DNA from: an archaeon
GTDB taxonomy: Archaea > Nanobdellota > Nanobdellia > Woesearchaeales > GW2011-AR9
DNA length: 64,000 nt
NCBI GenBank assembly: GCA_018670085.1
Contig: JABHRS010000022.1
Location: 3,992 to 67,991, forward strand
Direction of reading: 5' to 3'
Of this stretch, positions 9,880 to 19,049 are shown piece by piece (within the stretch, counting starts at the first letter, position 1; each line of letters starts with the position of its first letter). Both the position numbers and the translations under genes were made by a program. The notes below the pieces were generated by a model, which was given only the letters and a program-made list of their open reading frames with translations, did no database searches and had not been told where the DNA came from.

Positions 9880-12800
9880 CTAACCCATAAAAGCACTCAA
9901 ACCTACCTGACGATCCTTCTCTTTACCAAACACCACATCAATATTTAATTTTAGAAGGTTAATTGTTTCTTTAAGATAAGGAGAGAAATCATACTCATCA
10001 CAAAGGTCAAGCGACATCTGCACATACTTAACAACAGAACCTTGCGAAATTGTAAAAATTATATTTCCTTTAGTGCACTCGGTACAGTTCATAGAAATTG
10101 GTGGCCTTCTGTATTTAGTGTTACAAGTTGTACAACGAAAACCCTGCATACTAAACTTACGGAAATTTCCTTTAATATCCGCTAAAAAGTGTTTACGAAT
10201 AACTAAGGCTGCAACCAGATCCATATCAACCGCTCTCACCTTTTTGGCAATATCCATTTGGCCAAATAATTTCTCCTTCATACTTGGAAGAGTCTTATAC
10301 GCACTACATTGGATTCCTTTATTAAAATCGTCAACATCGTGAGTGAAACCAAAATCTTCATATTGATTTTCTTTACCAACTCTATCATCAAGTTGTTCAA
10401 TTTTTTTTTGGTCAGGACCATACTTTAACTCCCATGGTTTTTTCATCTCTAAAGCTGCCTCATAAAGTTCTAGTGGGTAATTCCACATTACATCAACCCC
10501 TAAAACTTGATCGTCAACTTCTGCTGGAGATAATACTGGAGTTAGAACTAACGCAGCATCCATAGTAGAACCCCTGCTAGAAGGCAAATATTCTTTGGAA
10601 AAATTGAGAAGGCCATCCATTAAAAGCATCACTGCAGCTTCATCTCCATCACAATCTCTACGCATTCCTGCATGATACATGGGATGGGCCAGTAAACTTT
10701 GAGTCTGAGAAAAACCAATAATTCTACCAACTGTTCCAGCTGAAATGTGTGGAGCTAGTCCTATTACCAAATGCCCAATCAAATCCTCTTGTTTTTCAGC
10801 ATTATAAAATGGTTTCATCTTGTATAAATTCACCATGATTTCGTCAATAAATTTTGTGATTCTGAGTAGAACTTTAGAAGATGAATCCTCGATAGCATCA
10901 TAATTTGGAAGGACTAAGTCTTGTGGTTTCATCTCCAAAACTTGATTAGTGTCAGTTAATTCTTTCCCATGAATATCTTGTGTGTAACCAAGTTCAATTA
11001 ATTTTTTTATAGATGTTTCAATTTCTTTTGGTTTGAAATGAGTTAAAGGTAATTCAGTGCAATCATACCTAGTCGTTCCATCTTTATTTACTGCAACCGA
11101 ATATTTTGCCCGATAAATTCCCTTGATCAAATTTTCAGGGATCTTTGCTTTGTTTGAAACACCTTTAACACCCTTAATTACATCAGGATAAATTCGGAGG
11201 TTCAGTTCTTTTAGGACCTTTTTGAAATAATCTTTGATGTTTAAGTTACCATAGGCATAATCGTCAGAACGATTGTCTTTAGTTTCAAACAACTCACCAT
11301 ATTGCTGTTGAAATTTGATTAACCATTCTTTATTGAACATACTTTTGATCGTCCCCTTTTCTAAAGCTGATTGAAAAGTTTTCATCCGTCCACCCTCTTC
11401 TCCCACTGGAAATAACACATGAGGTTTACCTTTCATAGAACGCATTTTAGATTTTTCTGGACGACCCATCCTGGCACCAATAAAGGTCCCGGCCTTATCT
11501 TGCTGGATTACACTGTTGATGCTGTTTAGATACTCAAGAGCATTTTGGCAATCTTTTGACTTTATTGGATCAATGGCTAAATTTGAAAGCTGTTTTTGAG
11601 AATTTAAATTGAATAGTTTGAGGATTAATTTTGCTTGATCTTTTTCTAAAACTAAATTTTCCTTATCTAAAACCAAATGAGGAATACCTATTTTTTCTAA
11701 CAATGCTTTTCCTTTGATTTGTACTGATTGGGATTCGAATAAAGGAAGGATTATTTTTTCTGTTGTTTCTGTTGAATGTATTTCTTCTTCACTGCCTTTT
11801 ACTCCTTGTATTTTTCCAAGTTTCAAATAGCTGACAAGGGAGTTTAAATCTGAGATATTTAGAAGTTTCCAATAATAAGAATAATACGAGTGAAGTGCCA
11901 CATGGTACTCCTTAGAAATTTTTAATGCTAAATCTAATTTAGGATTAACATATAATGGTTTTTCAACGGAGTTTTGAAATTCAGTGATTTGTTCTGTGGT
12001 CAGTTTTAGTTTTTCTTTAATTTGTTCAAAATTTAATTTTTCCTTTTTGTCAAAAGCTTCTTTCCCGAGAATGGCTTTTTGTACCTCAAGAGACCACCAC
12101 TCAGGACAATAACCTGCTGGAACTAGTTTATGTCCATTCTCACTAAAGTCGCCATAGTTAAATAGGATGTCGCCCAAAAATAAAACTTCGTGGACTTCCT
12201 TCACAACTTCTTTTGCTTCAGCTTCAGTGTGCAAATATTTTACAGTCCCATCTTTTAAAATTACAGTCGGACCATCGATTGTGTCACACAAGGTGATTGT
12301 AGCTGCCTTTCCTGGTCTTTCTACTTTTAACTGAGTGCCTACTGCAATATAATCTTCAATCACAATTAAACTAGCTGGATTCATAGCAGCCGCTGAAAAT
12401 CCAGAAGTTCTTCCACGACCATATCTTAACCTTAGGCCACCTGGTGCCATGGGATGAGTAATAACTGGCCGACCAGCTACAATATCTGCGATGAAAGTGT
12501 CGTTAGCCCTTAGAACTTCTATTTTCTTTCCGTCTTTTCCAAAAGCATCTTTAGACGCTGGACCTTCCTTCGCAGCACTATGTTTTGCATGAATTTCTTC
12601 CTTTAGTTTAATGAAGTCACCCATGAATTCCCAATCCAAATCGTAATCTTTTCCCCATTTTGATAATCTTTTCCAAAGTTTTGGTGACTTCTGACAAAGC
12701 CCCTCTGCAATAACAAGACACATTCCTCCTCTGATAAGGTTTGTCTCGATCCTTGGGATATCCTTATAGTTTGATACCTCAATTCGTTCAGTTGGATCAC

Positions 12801-13599
12801 CATCAACTTCAATTGGTAAATGTTCTACCATAAATTTTAATTCTTCATTACTTGGGCGGTATTGTAAATTAGTAACCCGGTCATGATAATCATTTACTTC
12901 AATCACATAACGGCTTACTTCTTTTTCAGTTGGATCCCAAGGTGCATAACCCATTTTCACCCTAACATAATCTGCAAGAATTACTGAAACTGAAGACGCT
13001 GTACCTCCTGCTCCTCTAACTGGGCCAGCATATTGCAAAGCGAAATATTCCTTACCATTATCTCTTCTTCTTTTGAGTTTTAAACCTACAAAACCCTCTA
13101 ATGGTGCAGCTACAATCCCAAGCGTTAAGTACGCAAAACCTGTTCGGATTCCAACTTCTATTGCTTCAATTTTAGTTGGGAATTTACAAAACTTTTGCTG
13201 TGCGATTTCTTCTGCAATTCTAAACCCAACTCGCCAATCTAATAAACCAATTTCATCTTCTAACTCTTCAATACGTTCTGTGATCCCTGCACCAAGTACT
13301 TGTGGGGCTACAATTGAGATTAATCCAATTACTCGCTCTGCCATAGAATTTGCTAGCATAATCTCCACATCATCATGAGGATCTAACCCTTTTTTCCTGG
13401 CTTCCCTGGCAATTTTGTAAGAGTGATCAATCTCTTCACGCATTTTTGCAAAATATTTATGCATCGATTCTGACGCTACAATTTCCATAAAGTATATACC
13501 TCTATTTGGCTTTTTAAGGATTCGCCGCTCTGAACCTAACTGTTGGGTTCTATCCTCTAAAACAGCTATTCTCTCATTATTGAACCAAATAATCTCCAA
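9880..13599 (-). CDS. DNA polymerase II (PolD) large subunit DP2
   Basis: N-terminal YFAKMREEIDHSYKIAREARKKGLDP, catalytic RRDCDGDEAA, C-terminal zinc fingers (CTTCNTKYRRPP...CTEC). No intein-sized insertion. By comparison with Pyrococcus DP2, the ATG at 13488 (MEIVASESMHKYF) may be the true start. Confidence 0.95.
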   Translation of the reverse strand: MEIIWFNNERIAVLEDRTQQLGSERRILKKPNRGIYFMEIVASESMHKYFAKMREEIDHSYKIAREARKKGLDPHDDVEIMLANSMAERVIGLISIVAPQVLGAGITERIEELEDEIGLLDWRVGFRIAEEIAQQKFCKFPTKIEAIEVGIRTGFAYLTLGIVAAPLEGFVGLKLKRRRDNGKEYFALQYAGPVRGAGGTASSVSVILADYVRVKMGYAPWDPTEKEVSRYVIEVNDYHDRVTNLQYRPSNEELKFMVEHLPIEVDGDPTERIEVSNYKDIPRIETNLIRGGMCLVIAEGLCQKSPKLWKRLSKWGKDYDLDWEFMGDFIKLKEEIHAKHSAAKEGPASKDAFGKDGKKIEVLRANDTFIADIVAGRPVITHPMAPGGLRLRYGRGRTSGFSAAAMNPASLIVIEDYIAVGTQLKVERPGKAATITLCDTIDGPTVILKDGTVKYLHTEAEAKEVVKEVHEVLFLGDILFNYGDFSENGHKLVPAGYCPEWWSLEVQKAILGKEAFDKKEKLNFEQIKEKLKLTTEQITEFQNSVEKPLYVNPKLDLALKISKEYHVALHSYYSYYWKLLNISDLNSLVSYLKLGKIQGVKGSEEEIHSTETTEKIILPLFESQSVQIKGKALLEKIGIPHLVLDKENLVLEKDQAKLILKLFNLNSQKQLSNLAIDPIKSKDCQNALEYLNSINSVIQQDKAGTFIGARMGRPEKSKMRSMKGKPHVLFPVGEEGGRMKTFQSALEKGTIKSMFNKEWLIKFQQQYGELFETKDNRSDDYAYGNLNIKDYFKKVLKELNLRIYPDVIKGVKGVSNKAKIPENLIKGIYRAKYSVAVNKDGTTRYDCTELPLTHFKPKEIETSIKKLIELGYTQDIHGKELTDTNQVLEMKPQDLVLPNYDAIEDSSSKVLLRITKFIDEIMVNLYKMKPFYNAEKQEDLIGHLVIGLAPHISAGTVGRIIGFSQTQSLLAHPMYHAGMRRDCDGDEAAVMLLMDGLLNFSKEYLPSSRGSTMDAALVLTPVLSPAEVDDQVLGVDVMWNYPLELYEAALEMKKPWELKYGPDQKKIEQLDDRVGKENQYEDFGFTHDVDDFNKGIQCSAYKTLPSMKEKLFGQMDIAKKVRAVDMDLVAALVIRKHFLADIKGNFRKFSMQGFRCTTCNTKYRRPPISMNCTECTKGNIIFTISQGSVVKYVQMSLDLCDEYDFSPYLKETINLLKLNIDVVFGKEKDRQVGLSAFMG

Positions 13600-13618: not shown

Positions 13619-13626
13619 TTTATAAA
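13619..13626 (-). promoter_or_regulatory. candidate TATA box upstream of the DP2 gene
   Basis: Palindromic TTTATAAA about 20 nt upstream of the ATG at 13599. If it is functional, the longer ORF would be leaderless. Confidence 0.3.
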
Positions 13627-13701
13627 TAATGGTGGTGCTTGACCAGTGGGTTGTGGGTAAGGAGTTGTGCGATGTATGGTTTCTAGTGGTTTGATTCAGA
13701 A

Positions 13702-15999
13702 TTAAAATAAAGTCCGGTGTTCTTGCTTTCGCCTGTTAACATAAACTAAATGGCCGTTATGTTTTGTGAAGTAACATTGATCAGAATATGCTGTTTGGTT
13801 GATGCCTGCTATCATATTTACTTTCAGCATTTTTGATGTAACTTCATCCAGTTGTTTTTTTGTGAAATGCATGTTATGATCATTCGCTAGATATGCGATA
13901 GTTGGAATTCTTTTTCTTTGGATTATTGAGAACAGTTCAGTTTGAGTGAACCCTCCATTTAAAAGTAAAATTCCCTTTGAAAGATTGATTGAAGCAACTG
14001 AATTTTTTGGGTCAGTGGTTCGTTTTAGTAATACATTCAAATCTTTTTTAATTGAAGATAATGCTTCTACAAATAAATCCCTAACATGTTTTGGATTCAT
14101 TTTTTTGCAAAGTTCTAAATATCCTTCTGGTTGGATTGGGCTTCTTCTGTGTCCAATTCCTTGCCAAATTAATGGGTTCTTGTGAATATGTTGGAGAATT
14201 AAATAATAATTTCGATAAGGTTTATTTGTGGCATAGTACATATCTAATCCCTTAACAAATGAAGTTCCCTCTAATTCCTGCCGTAGTTTTGCTTGACCAC
14301 GATATCTCTTAGGGATCAATTGATTATCAAAATAAGTAATATTGTCTGAAGTGTAGTTGATAACTAATGAAAACTGGAAAAAGTTTTTTTCTTTTGCAAG
14401 TTTTAGCAATTGTTTGATGTTCAGATTATTTTTTTTACTTGCGAGATAAATTGCTTTGGAAAACGGATCTGAACCAATATAAAATGCGTTTGTCTCTTTA
14501 TAATTATCATAAAAATGAATTCCGTCTGCTTTGTCTGTTGAAATTTTTATCTCGTTTGTACCGAAAATATTCATTAATTCTTCATGATGAGACACCGCAT
14601 ATTCAAAAGCTTTTTTGTATGGTTTGAACTTCGCGATCCAGCCAAGATAATTTTTTCTAATCCAAAGTAAATTTTTAATTATATCTATAATCTCAGTACT
14701 CCCATGTCTGGCATCTCTTAAGCATAGTTCTGGAAATTGATCCATGGTTCCTGCAAAATCTAACATATGCCCTTTATCGATTGTAGACATTATTGGAAAT
14801 AACAGCAGGCCTCCCACTTTCCTGTTTTCATCTTTGATATATGCACTCGACCTTTGGTGTTCTTGGTAGCCAAAGGAAATTCCATCGGTAACTCTCCTGC
14901 TAAAATCAGCTGATGACTGTTTATCAGAGAAATATTTTTTCTTTCGGATTAAAGTGTCTAGTGGGCTGGCAATAACTCCATCCTTGAATAATTTTTTAGT
15001 ATTTCCTCCTGGGAAATAATGGCTAACAAAGCCTGGTGTTGCAAAGGAAGGAATCTTATCTGGGTTCATACAAAGAGCAGGAAACTTGCTAGATGAATTG
15101 AAGATGAGGATTGTTCCTTTTGGAACCTTGAAATAAATATTACATAATTGGTCAAAGTCTTTTTCTGATAAAACTTTTCTTAAATGATCTTGATTATTTT
15201 TTAACATATCAATCCATTCACTAGCGATGTTCTTGGTGTTGGTGAATGTATTCCAACTGAAATTGTAGCCAAGACAATGATGATTGTCAAAAAAATAAGC
15301 TTTTTTATGGAACTGTTCTGCCCTACCTTTCTCTAAAAAATATTTGAACATTGGAATTGATTTAATGTAGGCAGTCTTAACTGCACATTCTCTAAAATAT
15401 CCTTCAACACCCAAGATTAATTGATGACTGGAGTTGAAGTTAGTATCTTGTTTTACTTTTGTTTGATGGTCTTTAATGACATTCTTGACTTCTTTTAGTA
15501 AAGCTAAAAGTCCCATGGCAGCAGCATGCGCTTGCCCTTCTAAACTCCCAACTTTCTTTGTATCTTTTTCTTTGATTGCTTTGGCTAATTCTCCAGTGTA
15601 CCTGGAAAATTCTCTGATTAAAGTTGCTGAATGGACCCTAACTTGTTCTGAAATGTTACGAACTTTTTGTTTTTTAGAGTTATCCAAATGAGATGATAAT
15701 TTATTTATTTCTTTGAATAATTTTCTTTCATCTGTTACTCTGCGCCGCTCTACTCTGCTGATTCTATTTAAATTTCGTTTTTCATCTTGGAATATTTTTA
15801 CTACAAGCGATGCATGCTCTTGTATTTTTTTGTGATCTTTTTCGGAGAGCGCCTTTGAGCCATCCTTTATGGCAGTTTCAATTTTTAGAATGTGTTTTGT
15901 TTCTTCAATTAATTCAGATAATAATGATACTTCAAACAGTAAATCTTTCTCTTCTTTAAATTCTAATTTAGCAGCTTTTTGAGAATCCATTACCATCAA
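13702..15999 (-). CDS. uncharacterised 765-aa protein (N-terminal coiled coil plus large unknown domain) lying between the two PolD subunit genes
   Basis: Long clean ORF. Residues 1 to ~190 are Lys/Glu-rich and heptad-like; the rest is rich in aromatics, Lys and Asn with no motif I recognise (no Walker A, HExxH or DxD). Confidence 0.7.
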   Translation of the reverse strand: MMVMDSQKAAKLEFKEEKDLLFEVSLLSELIEETKHILKIETAIKDGSKALSEKDHKKIQEHASLVVKIFQDEKRNLNRISRVERRRVTDERKLFKEINKLSSHLDNSKKQKVRNISEQVRVHSATLIREFSRYTGELAKAIKEKDTKKVGSLEGQAHAAAMGLLALLKEVKNVIKDHQTKVKQDTNFNSSHQLILGVEGYFRECAVKTAYIKSIPMFKYFLEKGRAEQFHKKAYFFDNHHCLGYNFSWNTFTNTKNIASEWIDMLKNNQDHLRKVLSEKDFDQLCNIYFKVPKGTILIFNSSSKFPALCMNPDKIPSFATPGFVSHYFPGGNTKKLFKDGVIASPLDTLIRKKKYFSDKQSSADFSRRVTDGISFGYQEHQRSSAYIKDENRKVGGLLLFPIMSTIDKGHMLDFAGTMDQFPELCLRDARHGSTEIIDIIKNLLWIRKNYLGWIAKFKPYKKAFEYAVSHHEELMNIFGTNEIKISTDKADGIHFYDNYKETNAFYIGSDPFSKAIYLASKKNNLNIKQLLKLAKEKNFFQFSLVINYTSDNITYFDNQLIPKRYRGQAKLRQELEGTSFVKGLDMYYATNKPYRNYYLILQHIHKNPLIWQGIGHRRSPIQPEGYLELCKKMNPKHVRDLFVEALSSIKKDLNVLLKRTTDPKNSVASINLSKGILLLNGGFTQTELFSIIQRKRIPTIAYLANDHNMHFTKKQLDEVTSKMLKVNMIAGINQTAYSDQCYFTKHNGHLVYVNRRKQEHRTLF

Positions 16000-16075
16000 G
16001 ATCTAATAATTAAATTTAGTATTTAAATATTCACTTGTAAAATTGAGTTATTGTTGAAAAAAATAGAAATTACTA

Positions 16076-17794
16076 TCAAACAAAACGTAAAACTCTAACT
16101 TCCCTGGTCTTCAAATTTACTACTGGAACCCGTCCTGGTTCAGGATTGTGTCCAAGCTTTTCTTGGAAATCAGTTTTAGATTGCCAACAACTTCCACAGA
16201 TCATAGTAACTGCTTTATAATTTGCAACACTACTATAATGGATATGCCCAGAGATCATAATATCTGGAACTTTAGTAATTAATAGAGGGTCAACATCATA
16301 AGCTGGAAGATATGGCGTTGACTTAAAGGCAGGAGCTAAATGCCTGCGCTTTAATAAAAATTTCATAATTAAATCTGCACGGTTATATCCTCCATTATTT
16401 CGAATACTATCTACATTAGCTACATAATAATCAAAACTATAACCATGATACATCAAAACATTGATACCACCAAAATCAGGAGTCTTTGCGATAGTAATTG
16501 TGGAAGGATTAGAAACTAATTCTACGTTTTCCATTGCATGCAACTCCTCAGTATATTCTTTGTAGAAAACTGATTGAGGTTCAGCTAAATGAACTAAATC
16601 ATGATTACCTGGACAGATGAAAATTTTCTTGTCTTTTGGAATTTGTTTAATGAACCTGGTGAACTCATCATACTGACCTTTCATATCCAAGATTGTTAAT
16701 TCTTTATGTTGATTAGGGTAAATTCCGATCCCGTCAATTAAATCACCTGCGATAAATATATACTTTACTTTATTTGCAAGATCTTTCTGTGCATCACTTC
16801 CAGTCTCTGCTTTCAGCCAGTTCATACACTTTTGAAACTCTTCATCTAAAAAATTATTACTACCTACATGAATGTCTGAGAGAAAAATAGCATATTCTTC
16901 TTTCGGTGCTTTTTTAAGATCAGCTGAGTTTGGGACATCTGGCCAAACAAATTCGGATGCAAACATGATGTCACCAGAGTTGGACCCAGAGATTCCAATC
17001 ACTTCATCAAAAATTAATTCTTGAGCTTGTGCAAAGGCGGCTTTATTTTTTTGAGAAACTATTACTTTGATATGACCAGTTAAATCTTCAACTGTGATAA
17101 TATAATTATTGTTCCTGGTGAGTGCGATATCATATACAACACCAATGATTGCGCAATCTTCCTTCTCTTTTTTTTGTAATACTCTACTAATACTAGTAAC
17201 ACCTTTCATTTCAGGATGTGCACGAATTATTTTCTCTAAAAATTTGTAACGGCTCTTAAAAATCCCTGCAAAATCTTTTACTTTGTATTTTTTAGCGATG
17301 TGGGCGTAATTAACAACCACTTGATATGATACATCTATTTGCTGTTCTTCTTCTAAAGGTAAATCAAATTTTTCATTTAATCCTTCTTCAAACATTGTTC
17401 CTGGTGAATCAAAAGAAACTTCAACGCCACCTGGTTTTAACTCAGTTTTAGCTGCATGAATTGTAGTTGTAGTTCCTTGTGTTTGAATACTTGATTCAAT
17501 TGCACCTGAGAGAGAAACTGCACCTGTATTTTGAAGATGGGATTGATACAAATCCTTCTCTTCTGGAGTTTGTAAGTCGATTCTGTGAGTGTCTAGATTT
17601 TTTGAGTCTATTAATTTACCATCGTCTAATTGAAGTGAAATGTCTTGATTGTCTACAACCAATAAATTGTTTTCCTTTCGAATTTTTTCAATCAAAGTTC
17701 CATCAGTATCAGATTCAATCTGGTTCATCATCTCCTTTGTGACTAAAACTCCTTGAGCGAAGAGTTTTTCGATTAATTTTTCTTTGGATTCCAT
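16076..17794 (-). CDS. DNA polymerase II (PolD) small subunit DP1 (Mre11-like phosphoesterase/exonuclease)
   Basis: Calcineurin-like phosphoesterase motifs in order: FLSDIHVGS, IAGDLIDGIGIYP, CPGNHD, MYHGYS, SGHIH. An OB-fold region precedes them. Confidence 0.9.
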   Translation of the reverse strand: MESKEKLIEKLFAQGVLVTKEMMNQIESDTDGTLIEKIRKENNLLVVDNQDISLQLDDGKLIDSKNLDTHRIDLQTPEEKDLYQSHLQNTGAVSLSGAIESSIQTQGTTTTIHAAKTELKPGGVEVSFDSPGTMFEEGLNEKFDLPLEEEQQIDVSYQVVVNYAHIAKKYKVKDFAGIFKSRYKFLEKIIRAHPEMKGVTSISRVLQKKEKEDCAIIGVVYDIALTRNNNYIITVEDLTGHIKVIVSQKNKAAFAQAQELIFDEVIGISGSNSGDIMFASEFVWPDVPNSADLKKAPKEEYAIFLSDIHVGSNNFLDEEFQKCMNWLKAETGSDAQKDLANKVKYIFIAGDLIDGIGIYPNQHKELTILDMKGQYDEFTRFIKQIPKDKKIFICPGNHDLVHLAEPQSVFYKEYTEELHAMENVELVSNPSTITIAKTPDFGGINVLMYHGYSFDYYVANVDSIRNNGGYNRADLIMKFLLKRRHLAPAFKSTPYLPAYDVDPLLITKVPDIMISGHIHYSSVANYKAVTMICGSCWQSKTDFQEKLGHNPEPGRVPVVNLKTREVRVLRFV

Positions 17795-17843: not shown

Positions 17844-19049
17844 CTAATTATTCATTTTCAAAGATTTCTCAATTAACTCTTGAAGCTTTATTTTCATCAT
17901 CTCATCAAGGGAGACACTTACTTCACGGGTTCTACCATACCTTCCTTTGGAGATGATTTTAGCATTAATTATTCCAAGCATATCAAACTCAGCTAGAATG
18001 TCAGAGATACGTCTCTGAGTTAAAACATTAAATTGGGCCTTTTTACAGACTTGACTATAAAGTTCATAAATTTCTCCTGTGAAAAATGGACGCTTGTTAG
18101 GAGTTAATTGAAGGATTGCATACAATACTAGTTGAAATTGTTTTGGTTGACTAGTTACTGTATTAACTATCTTATCGGACTCTATTTTTTCTTCAGCCTT
18201 ATCTAAATGGTTAAGTGCAACTGTTTTGGAATTTTCACGTTCTGCTAGTTCCCCTGCTACTCGAAGTAAATCAATTGCACGACGCGCATCACCATGCTCA
18301 CGAGCAGCGTAGGCAGCACACTTCTCAACAACACCAGGTTCAACAACACCAGGAGCAAATGCTTGCTCACAACGTTGTCTTAAAATATCTTGAATTTGAA
18401 GCGCATTATATGGGGGAAAGATTAACTCTTCTTCTGATAGAGAAGATTGAACCCTTGGATCCAAATTTTCTGCAAAAACTAAATTGTTTGAGATACCAAT
18501 CAAACATATTTGAGATTGTTTTAACTCAGCATTGATACGAGTTAAGTTATAGAGCATTTCATCTCCCATCTTTTTAGTTAATTGATCGATTTCATCTAGA
18601 ACCAGTAAAACAATCTGCTTCTTGGAATCTAAAAGAGAATAAAATATATTGTAAACTTCATCTGTTGGAAGACCGGTTGCTGGAACTTCACGGCCAAATG
18701 CCTTAATTATTTGAGCAATTAAACGATATTCAGTGTCTGCTACCCTTTTTAGTTTGCAGTTAACATAAATTGATTTTAATGGGATCTCTCTTTCTTTGGC
18801 AATCTGATCCATTGATTGTAATATGTATTTTATAGACAGAGTTTTACCAGTACCAGTCTTTCCATAGACAAAAAGGTTTGAAGGGCGTTCAACTCTTAAT
18901 GAAGGTGCTAGAATATTTGCGATCTCACTAATTAATTCTTCCCGGTAAAGAATTTCACTTGGAACATAGTGGGAAAGTAGAAGAGCCTTGTTTGTAAACA
19001 ATGATTCACGTTCTAAAAAATGTTCAAAAAATTTTTTCATCTTTTTCAT
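17844..19049 (-). CDS. cdc6: Orc1/Cdc6 replication initiator
   Basis: AAA+ Walker A VYGKTGTGKT, Walker B LVLDEIDQL, sensor region, C-terminal winged helix. Adjacent to the predicted origin. Confidence 0.95.
   Translation of the reverse strand: MKKMKKFFEHFLERESLFTNKALLLSHYVPSEILYREELISEIANILAPSLRVERPSNLFVYGKTGTGKTLSIKYILQSMDQIAKEREIPLKSIYVNCKLKRVADTEYRLIAQIIKAFGREVPATGLPTDEVYNIFYSLLDSKKQIVLLVLDEIDQLTKKMGDEMLYNLTRINAELKQSQICLIGISNNLVFAENLDPRVQSSLSEEELIFPPYNALQIQDILRQRCEQAFAPGVVEPGVVEKCAAYAAREHGDARRAIDLLRVAGELAERENSKTVALNHLDKAEEKIESDKIVNTVTSQPKQFQLVLYAILQLTPNKRPFFTGEIYELYSQVCKKAQFNVLTQRRISDILAEFDMLGIINAKIISKGRYGRTREVSVSLDEMMKIKLQELIEKSLKMNN

What the first reader, a model, noticed from the sequence alone, without database searches (positions are those of the whole stretch)
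13702..15999. Unrecognisable 765-aa gene inserted between the PolD small and large subunit genes in the origin-proximal replication cluster
The minus-strand order is oriC, orc1/cdc6, DP1, the 765-aa ORF, DP2. In the classical Pyrococcus arrangement DP1 and DP2 are adjacent. The intervening protein has a ~190-aa Lys/Glu-rich coiled-coil N-terminus and a ~570-aa domain with no motif I can assign. The same strand and gaps of 76 and 100-210 bp make co-regulation with the replisome genes plausible. It could be a lineage-specific replisome or chromatin accessory factor, or an unrelated insertion.
Basis: partly seen in the sequence, partly recalled or inferred. Interest (0 to 1): 0.6.

Follow-up and report, generated by a model that had tools for sequence, protein, structure and literature searches.

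The report
Orphan accessory gene splitting PolD genes
The 765-residue gene between the two DNA polymerase D subunit genes is real, but it belongs to a rare, fast-evolving protein family of unknown function that sits at unrelated places in other DPANN archaea, so it is most likely an accessory gene in a variable slot and not a replisome part.

Summary
The minus-strand order is cdc6, DP1, a 765-aa ORF (13702-15999), DP2. The ORF matches nothing in Pfam, NCBIfam, PADLOC, PHROGs or PDB sequences.

The replisome-factor reading is not supported.
- Of 34 relatives with DP1 and DP2 on one contig, 30 have them within 139 nt of each other or overlapping.
- The adjacency is broken only in this genus and one neighbouring genus. 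There the slot holds other genes: pyrH in three congeners, CYTH-NUDIX in G013.
- The ORF's family is found in 9 of 401 sampled genomes of the phylum, all from one order.
- It lies in 12 different housekeeping contexts and is next to PolD only here.
- Its sister gene in a congener is 32% identical (DP1: 72%) and lies between an Asn-synthase fusion gene and a GTPase gene. That junction carries no such gene in this genome.
- The ORF has its own TATA box in leaderless geometry. It lacks the DNA-repair promoter box that DP2 carries in the spacer.
- It has no PIP-like motif, and its codon usage is native.

Function remains unknown. The protein has an optional N-terminal helical module, an enzyme-like core with invariant polar residues, and a conserved C-terminal domain. 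A PARP-like resemblance failed profile comparison. Both AlphaFold2 models were poor (pLDDT 53-54).

The parts
13702..15999 (-). Gene X: 765 aa from TTG 15999, or 764 aa from ATG 15996. Member of an orphan protein family found only in one DPANN order.
15424..15999 (-). N-terminal module (aa 1-192): four long helices with a conserved basic ERRR..E.R motif. It is missing from the ~600-aa short forms of the family. It also occurs in another ORF of this genome (C33:31051-32229).
14590..15414 (-). Conserved alpha/beta core (aa 196-470). Invariant in 19 sequences: T209, N312, G323, R369, G373, Y387, D420, E424. Nearly invariant: K208, W324, H327, S375, GG396-397. It looks like an enzyme, but the chemistry is unknown.
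13705..14457 (-). Conserved C-terminal domain (aa 515-765) with no detectable relatives outside the family.
16020..16029 (-). TATA-like box TATTTAAATA. It starts 30 nt before TTG 15999 (33 nt before ATG 15996), which is leaderless-promoter geometry. No repair-type box lies upstream of it.
   Evidence: sequence; no box; promoter function is inferred
16057..16063 (-). T7 run 13 nt after the DP1 stop codon. It is a likely archaeal termination signal that separates DP1 from X.
   Evidence: sequence; function is inferred
16076..17794 (-). PolD small subunit DP1
9880..13599 (-). PolD large subunit DP2. The start is probably TTG 13599, because similarity to congener DP2 extends upstream of ATG 13488 and the promoter geometry fits.
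13619..13658 (-). DP2's own promoter inside the X-DP2 spacer: box ACCCACAACCCACTGGTCAAG (13658-13638), then 8 nt, then TATA TTATTTATAAA (13629-13619), which starts 30 nt before TTG 13599.
17844..19049 (-). orc1/cdc6

Best explanation
Gene X is an independently transcribed accessory gene with a narrow taxonomic range. It occupies a variable slot that opened between DP1 and DP2 in this genus. It is not a dedicated replisome or chromatin component.

Shown:
- In this order DP1 and DP2 are ancestrally a tight, often overlapping pair.
- In genus g1 the pair is split and the slot holds different cargo in each genome: pyrH on the opposite strand in three congeners, with extra genes in G001 and G003. 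G000 has X and no pyrH.
- The X family is sporadic: about 2% of sampled genomes of the phylum, all in one order.
- It is always single-copy and sits in different housekeeping neighbourhoods.
- X and its congener sister form a 100/100-supported clade but are only 32% identical. They lie at different loci.

Inferred:
- X is transcribed from its own leaderless TATA promoter, outside the repair-box regulon that drives DP2.
- The protein is a soluble, basic, modular enzyme. It has an optional N-terminal four-helix module (regulatory or targeting, reused with an NYN-like nuclease ORF in the same genome), a catalytic-looking alpha/beta core with invariant polar residues (R369, Y387, D420, E424, and usually H327 and S375), and a conserved C-terminal domain.
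- Patchy distribution, relocation and fast divergence point to a conflict or defence-type role, or another niche-specific role. The substrate is probably a nucleotide or nucleic acid. The chemistry is not established.
For: Anatomy and neighbours.

Synteny:
- DP1 and DP2 are at most 139 nt apart or overlapping in 30 of 34 relatives with both on one contig.
- Slot contents in G001, G004, G013 and G003.

Distribution:
- 34 clusters in 1.84 billion representatives.
- 5 of 401 genomes of the order.
- 9 of 401 genomes of the phylum, all in the same order.
- One copy in G000.

Contexts:
- Contexts differ and no conserved partner exists.
- The AsnS-GTPase junction that holds the sister gene in G003 has only a 148-aa ORF in G000 and no X remnant.

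Divergence and composition:
- Tree: X and P0006 are sisters (100/100) with branches of 1.04 and 1.86 substitutions per site, against 72% DP1 identity.
- Native codon usage and GC.

Transcription signals:
- Own TATA box, and a T7 run after DP1.
- DP2 has its own box plus TATA in the spacer. The same box type lies upstream of DP2 in three congeners and is absent upstream of X and of all X-family genes checked.

Protein features:
- No PIP or APIM motif, no transmembrane segment, net charge +40.
- Conserved residues.
- N-terminal module shared with C33:31051-32229 (E 5.5e-6), whose C-terminus weakly resembles NYN (E 0.028).
Against: - No function is demonstrated. The enzyme and conflict-role statements are inference from conservation pattern and distribution only.
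- There is no PADLOC hit and no consistent association with defence islands. TA or integrase genes are near only 3 of 12 loci.
- Several family members have neighbours in DNA or nucleotide metabolism: gyrA, Ogg, UDG, AP-endonuclease-like, NUDIX, HIT, MazG, dCMP deaminase. A DNA-related role therefore cannot be excluded. These categories were defined after seeing the data, and HIT genes are numerous in G000 (matches on 5 contigs).
- X points the same way as DP1 and DP2, and there is no strong terminator between X and DP2. Read-through transcription cannot be excluded.
Confidence: 0.6

Rival explanations
1. X is a lineage-specific replisome or chromatin accessory factor that works with PolD.
For: - It lies between DP1 and DP2 on the same strand, next to cdc6 and the putative origin.
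- The protein is basic (net +40).
- One distant family member lies directly downstream of gyrA. Others are near Ogg, UDG or AP-endonuclease-like genes.
Against: - Synteny with PolD is unique to this genome among the 12 family loci examined.
- PolD was found in 36-38 of 41 relatives, but full-length X in only 2, plus one distant short form.
- The congener sister gene lies elsewhere.
- X has its own promoter and lacks the box that DP2 shares with repair genes.
- No PIP or APIM motif is present, and the C-termini are not conserved.
Confidence: 0.07
2. The conserved core is an extremely divergent PARP-like (H-Y-E type) NAD+-dependent ADP-ribosyltransferase. This concerns the chemistry and is compatible with an accessory or conflict role.
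For: - By eye, three family motifs are co-linear with PARP1 segments: 'HAxPGxNLxxVxKxGxLxSP' with '[20 protein letters not shown]', 'DGISF[AS]F' with 'KGIYFAD' followed by a Tyr 11-12 residues later, and 'PEIxLRD' with 'NEYIVYD'. The PARP fragments were verified against PDB chains.
- hhalign's best local alignment picks the first of these motif pairs.
- NUDIX or HIT genes lie near 4 of 12 loci.
Against: - hhalign of a 32-sequence core profile against a PARP1/PARP2/TNKS2/PARP15 profile gives probability 0.5% and P 0.11. The other two motifs are not aligned co-linearly.
- There is no PARP or other ART hit in Pfam for 14 members or the consensus, nor in PDB sequences.
- The +6 Asn, +14 Gly and +19 Pro spacing is not conserved even among PARPs.
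- The first Tyr of the triad is Ser in this family.
- The structural models are too poor to test the fold.
Confidence: 0.1
3. X is itself a selfish mobile gene, for example a transposase-like or homing-type element, that inserted between DP1 and DP2.
For: - The two congeners carry it at different sites. Distribution is sporadic.
- Relatives carry inteins in DP2 and gyrA, so homing elements are active in these lineages.
- One family locus has an adjacent tyrosine integrase.
Against: - It is single-copy in every genome.
- No terminal inverted or direct repeats flank it.
- It has no similarity to transposases, homing endonucleases or PHROG families, and no relatives in viral contigs.
- Codon usage is native.
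- It has no DDE, HUH or LAGLIDADG-type motif by eye.
Confidence: 0.08
4. X is a decaying or functionless ORF.
For: It shows very fast divergence from its congener sister, and no known domain was found.
Against: - It is an intact 765-codon frame.
- Residues are invariant across clades that are only 20-30% identical.
- Homologues are full-length and intact in all loci examined.
- Codon usage is normal.
Confidence: 0.02

Closest known systems
Classical archaeal cdc6-DP1-DP2 origin-proximal cluster (Thermococcales type; PolD structure paper PMC6355029; archaeal replication-gene context analysis PMC2643942)
   Same: The same three genes lie in the same order and on the same strand, next to a long non-coding putative origin. 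These two papers appeared in the search list. I did not read them.
   Different: Here DP1 and DP2 are separate transcription units, split by a 2.3-kb unrelated gene. The split occurs only in this genus and one neighbouring genus, and its cargo varies.
Variable hotspots between conserved core genes that collect accessory or defence genes in prokaryotes (general knowledge)
   Same: The flanking genes are conserved. The cargo differs between congeners: X; pyrH; pyrH plus three orphan genes. G013, in a neighbouring genus, carries CYTH-NUDIX. X-family genes also occupy another variable junction (AsnS-GTPase) in G003.
   Different: There is no recognised defence gene and no integrase or repeats at this site. 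The slot lies inside a replication operon.
PARP-like H-Y-E ADP-ribosyltransferases (Pfam PF00644)
   Same: Three short motifs are co-linear by eye, and a helical region lies N-terminal to a beta-rich core.
   Different: There is no statistical support (hhalign probability 0.5%). The first Tyr is replaced by Ser. The fold is not confirmed.
DPANN DNA-repair promoter box found earlier in this scan (e1-3591103, e1-3591117); those reports name the Sulfolobales Orc1-2 damage-response element (PMC6061795) as its closest known relative
   Same: DP2, immediately downstream of X, carries this box at the canonical distance from its TATA box. So do uvrB, rarA, and the hjc- and hef-like genes.
   Different: X and the 12 X-family genes examined do not carry it. 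X therefore lies outside that regulon.

Membership tests
PolD/replisome accessory factor | Conserved gene neighbourhood with DP1/DP2 or other replisome genes across lineages | tested here: not met
   Twelve family loci were examined. Only G000 has the gene next to PolD.
PolD/replisome accessory factor | Phyletic pattern that follows PolD | tested here: not met
   DP1 was found in 36 of 41 relatives and DP2 in 38 of 41. Full-length X was found in 2 of 41, plus one distant short form. The family occurs in 9 of 401 genomes of the phylum.
PolD/replisome accessory factor | PCNA-interacting (PIP) or APIM motif | tested here: not met
   A regex scan found none. The C-termini of the family are not conserved.
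PolD/replisome accessory factor | Physical interaction with DP1, DP2 or PCNA | not testable with these tools
   No multimer prediction or experiment was available.
ADP-ribosyltransferase superfamily (PARP-like H-Y-E) | Significant profile similarity to an ART family | tested here: not met
   hhalign gave probability 0.15-0.5% and P 0.11-0.4. There was no Pfam or PDB sequence hit.
ADP-ribosyltransferase superfamily (PARP-like H-Y-E) | H-Y-E catalytic triad in order | tested here: inconclusive
   H327 is nearly invariant and E424 is invariant. The position that would align with the first Tyr is Ser375. Y387 is invariant 12 residues later.
ADP-ribosyltransferase superfamily (PARP-like H-Y-E) | ART fold (split beta-sheet) | tested here: inconclusive
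   The AlphaFold2 models have pLDDT 54 and 53, and below 35 in the core. Foldseek found no match at E <= 0.001.
Mobile element (IS, transposon or homing-endonuclease gene) | Terminal repeats or target duplications, several copies, and a transposase or endonuclease domain | tested here: not met
   No flanking repeats. Single copy. No such domains. No viral relatives.
Known anti-phage defence systems (PADLOC-DB 2.0) | Match to a defence-system protein model | tested here: not met
   Five family members were scanned. The only hit was a coiled-coil-type match to ZorA at E 0.004 in the N-terminal helices.

The most novel reading that the evidence does not exclude
The family is a new, DPANN-restricted enzyme class. 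Its core would be a highly divergent NAD+/nucleotide-using transferase of the PARP/ART type with a Ser in place of the first Tyr. It would be coupled to an exchangeable N-terminal four-helix sensor module that this lineage also fuses to an NYN-like nuclease. It would act as a stand-alone conflict or DNA-damage effector.
Probability: 0.1. Interest if true: 0.7.

Novelty: new member of a known kind. Interest (0 to 1): 0.3.

Why it matters
For annotating replication genes, this shows that position inside the cdc6-DP1-DP2 cluster does not indicate function here. The cluster is split in one genus and the split acts as a cargo slot. DP2 has acquired its own promoter carrying the lineage's DNA-repair box.

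The gene defines a rare 'dark' protein family of 600-820 residues with an enzyme-like conserved core and no detectable relatives. It is a reasonable target for structure determination, but nothing yet ties it to a long-standing question.

Tried and rejected
1. Domain searches. I scanned X, 14 family members and three consensus segments against Pfam, X against NCBIfam, and five family members against PADLOC and PHROGs. Nothing significant came back.
2. PDB sequence search with the family profile gave only a spurious PEX19 match.
3. AlphaFold2 on the full length (9-sequence alignment) and on the core alone (11 sequences) gave pLDDT 54 and 53. Foldseek against PDB returned only generic helical bundles or noise. 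The alignments could not be made deeper. The three word-indexed homologue searches returned at most 3 proteins each, and the 34 representative hits were not eligible for folding.
4. The PARP/ART lead was tested with PDB-verified PARP1, PARP2, TNKS2 and PARP15 fragments and hhalign. It was not supported.
5. I looked for Tpt1 (PF01885) sequences in relatives to build a second ART profile and found none.
6. By eye I checked for DDE, PD-(D/E)xK, GIY-YIG, kinase, GH18, patatin, HKD, 2H and nucleotidyltransferase signatures. None fits the order and spacing of the invariant residues.
7. A search for a conserved neighbour by all-against-all BLAST of 112 neighbouring ORFs found only pairwise recurrences (HIT twice, PIN_2 twice, GTPase twice, PAN-like twice). 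These are compatible with chance, given multiple testing and the many HIT matches in G000 (5 contigs).
8. Flanking repeats that would mark a mobile element: none.
9. RNA genes in the spacers: none.
10. The viral-contig scan found no relatives.
Full report
**Observation**

The window's minus strand carries four genes in this order:
- orc1/cdc6, 17844-19049
- DP1, 16076-17794 (DNA_pol_E_B and Metallophos)
- a 765-codon ORF, 13702-15999, here called X
- DP2, 9880-13599 (PolC_DP2 N-terminal, central and catalytic domains)

X starts at TTG 15999 or ATG 15996. The public copy, P0005, is 764 aa. X has no significant Pfam or NCBIfam match.

**Is X a real gene?**

Yes. A full HMMER scan of 1.84 billion representative proteins found 34 related clusters, 23 of them at E <= 1e-10.

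The family has long forms of 730-820 aa. It also has short forms of about 600-640 aa that lack the first ~190 residues.

Nineteen sequences that are only 20-33% identical to X share these residues:
- Invariant: T209, N312, G323, R369, G373, Y387, D420, E424, G676.
- Nearly invariant: K208, W324, H327, S375, GG396-397.

Codon usage and GC content are typical of the genome (synonymous-codon score z -0.26, GC z -0.98).

**Synteny test**

The genome (G000, 1.48 Mb, 34% GC) belongs to a large DPANN order. Family loci from public MAGs are labelled Woesearchaeota or Nanoarchaeia.

I located DP1 and DP2 in 40 relatives. Where both lie on one contig, 30 of 34 genomes have them overlapping or at most 139 nt apart. 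The exceptions are:
- G000 (genus g1) holds X.
- G004 (genus g1) holds one opposite-strand gene.
- G001 (genus g1) holds four genes.
- G013 (a neighbouring genus) holds a CYTH-NUDIX gene.

In G003 (also genus g1) DP1 and DP2 lie on different contigs. The same opposite-strand gene and a membrane-protein gene lie upstream of its DP2.

The opposite-strand gene in G001, G003 and G004 is archaeal UMP kinase, pyrH (TIGR02076, E 1e-48 to 2e-52). G000 has no pyrH match.

The DP1-DP2 junction is therefore a variable slot specific to this genus, and X is the cargo of this one genome.

**Distribution and contexts of the family**

| Sample | Genomes with a match |
|---|---|
| 40 relatives plus G000 | G000 and G003 full-length, G033 a distant short form; two further weak hits cover only the N-terminal helices |
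| 401 genomes of the order | 5 |
| 401 high-quality genomes of the phylum | 9, all in the same order; 4 of 41 in G000's own family |

No relatives were found in viral contigs.

Twelve loci with enough flanking DNA show twelve different neighbourhoods:

| Locus | Neighbours of the X-family gene |
|---|---|
| G000 (window) | DP1 / DP2 |
| L001 (G003) | Asn-synthase fusion / DRG-type GTPase |
| L016 | NUDIX, 149-aa ORF / PHP, AP_endonuc_2 |
| L017 | integrase, HIT |
| L018 | BtpA / Trm5 |
| L019 | AAA_14 |
| L020 | 99-aa ORF / UPF0047 |
| L021 | Trm56 / PKD |
| L028 | Spt5-NGN / small ORFs |
| L029 | gyrA / PIN_2 |
| L032 | Ogg, DUF6938 / thioredoxin-reductase-like |
| L033 | MazG, HIT |

An all-against-all comparison of 112 neighbouring ORFs found only pairwise recurrences: HIT, PIN_2, a GTPase and a PAN-like ATPase. 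HIT-type matches are numerous in G000 (5 contigs), and the number of comparisons is large. I do not regard any partner as established.

Many neighbours act on nucleotides or damaged DNA. I noticed this pattern only after seeing the data, so I treat it as a weak lead.

**Relation to the congener copy**

In a maximum-likelihood tree X and P0006 (from G003) are sisters with 100/100 support. They sit on very long branches of 1.04 and 1.86 substitutions per site and are 32% identical. DP1 of the same two genomes is 72% identical.

P0006 lies between an Asn-synthase/diphthamide-synthase fusion gene and a GTPase gene. In G000 these two genes are neighbours (C19:23061-27028), separated only by a 148-aa ORF, with no trace of an X-like gene.

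The family therefore moves, or is lost and regained, within the genus. It also evolves several times faster than the replication genes.

**Transcription signals**

These are read from the sequence; their function is inferred.
- A T7 run (16063-16057) follows the DP1 stop codon by 13 nt.
- TATTTAAATA (16029-16020) begins 30 nt before TTG 15999. This is the leaderless geometry noted elsewhere in this genome (e1-4544449).
- The X-DP2 spacer contains ACCCACAACCCACTGGTCAAG (13658-13638), then 8 nt, then TTATTTATAAA (13629-13619). That TATA box starts 30 nt before TTG 13599.
- CCACTGGTCAA occurs 15 times in the genome, against 0-1 times in shuffled genomes. With one mismatch allowed the count is 51, against 10-18.
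- Most copies lie 41-43 nt upstream of a start codon. Those genes include uvrB (PDB match 9e-146) and rarA (1e-107). By eye they also include hjc-, hef-, PolB- and Cas4-like genes and several LAGLIDADG ORFs.
- The same box type precedes DP2 in G001, G004 and G003.
- The box is absent upstream of X, of P0006 and of the other X-family genes examined.

This box was reported earlier in the scan as a DPANN DNA-repair promoter box (e1-3591103, e1-3591117). I reached it independently, starting from the spacer.

Two consequences follow. DP2 is driven by its own repair-regulon promoter and probably starts at TTG 13599. X is a separate unit outside that regulon.

**What the protein looks like**

X has no transmembrane segment, no PIP or APIM motif, and a net charge of about +40.

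AlphaFold2 on the full length (9-sequence alignment) gave pLDDT 54. Residues 1-190 form four long helices. Parts of 435-660 are moderately confident helices and a small sheet. The conserved core at 311-434 scores below 35. Folding the core alone (11 sequences) gave pLDDT 53. Foldseek against PDB returned only generic helical bundles or noise.

The N-terminal module is mobile as a domain. A family HMM of it matches aa 64-163 of another G000 ORF, C33:31051-32229 (E 5.5e-6 among 3210 ORFs). That ORF's C-terminus weakly resembles an NYN nuclease domain (E 0.028, below the Pfam cut-off). Short ORFs carrying only this module also exist (P0038 and P0039; some may be fragments).

**The PARP lead**

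By eye, three family motifs line up with human PARP1:
- 'HAxPGxNLxxVxKxGxLxSP' with '[20 protein letters not shown]'
- 'DGISF' with 'KGIYF', followed by a Tyr 11-12 residues later
- 'PEIxLRD' with 'NEYIVYD'

Two residues were corrected from the printed alignments. I built a profile from the four fragments and compared it with a 32-sequence profile of the X core.

hhalign aligned only the first motif, with probability 0.5% and P 0.11. Global and alternative alignments gave nothing co-linear. The spacing that caught my eye is not conserved even among PARPs. The lead is therefore unsupported. It is not strictly excluded, because ART families are often recognisable only by structure.

**Verdict**

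The replisome-factor interpretation fails the tests of synteny, phyletic pattern, motif and promoter. The 'unrelated insertion' alternative is supported, with one refinement: the gene is not compositionally foreign. It belongs to a native but sporadic, fast-evolving, order-restricted orphan family that occupies variable junctions.

My best mechanistic guess, at low confidence, is a modular stand-alone enzyme with a conflict-type or niche-specific role. Interest is modest. The family is a genuine unknown, but nothing here points to a new principle. The promoter box next to it was already found by this scan.

Noticed in passing
window 13619-13658 (-); also window 40991 (+); G000-wide: DP2 has its own promoter in the X-DP2 spacer. 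A box ACCCACAACCCACTGGTCAAG lies 8 nt upstream of a TATA box that starts 30 nt before TTG 13599, so DP2 probably starts at that TTG. CCACTGGTCAA occurs 15 times in G000, against 0-1 in shuffles. It precedes uvrB, rarA, hjc-, hef- and PolB-like genes and several LAGLIDADG ORFs. The same box type precedes DP2 in three congeners. The scan had already reported this repair-type box (e1-3591103, e1-3591117).
   Followed up: partly
L011:4201-4962 (-), L010:6887-7621 (-), L014:2057-2749 (-); G000 whole genome: Three congeners carry archaeal pyrH (UMP kinase, TIGR02076) on the opposite strand in the DP1-DP2 slot. G000 (94% complete) has X there and no detectable pyrH anywhere. Its only AA_kinase-family match lies in a 486-aa open frame on C17.
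   Followed up: partly
G000 C33:31051-32229 (+), outside the window: In this ORF (about 377 aa from its first ATG), residues 64-163 match the N-terminal helical module of the X family (E 5.5e-6). Its C-terminus weakly resembles an NYN nuclease domain (E 0.028). The module seems to be shuffled between different effector domains.
   Followed up: partly
L032:3658-6898 (+) (genome G033): A short-form X-family gene starts 4 nt after a 446-aa DUF6938 gene on the same strand. By eye the DUF6938 protein looks like a GT-B glycosyltransferase. This is the only tightly coupled partner seen, and it is not conserved elsewhere.
   Followed up: no
L014:4181-9511 (G003 DP2, 1776 aa); G006, G021, G037 DP2; L029:2-3367 (gyrA): DP2 genes of several relatives are 350-550 aa longer than usual, with gaps in the match, which suggests inteins. 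The gyrA next to one family member carries an intein (NCBIfam intein_Cterm and GyrA_w_intein).
   Followed up: no
L015, L016, L017 (record titles): MAGs titled 'uncultured Methanosarcinales archaeon' carry X-family genes. By contig-length match with G357, L016 belongs to the same family as G000 in the genome collection. These public labels look wrong.
   Followed up: partly
G000 C19:24332-24778 (+): A 148-aa ORF occupies the AsnS-GTPase junction that holds the X-family gene in congener G003. This is another variable slot.
   Followed up: no
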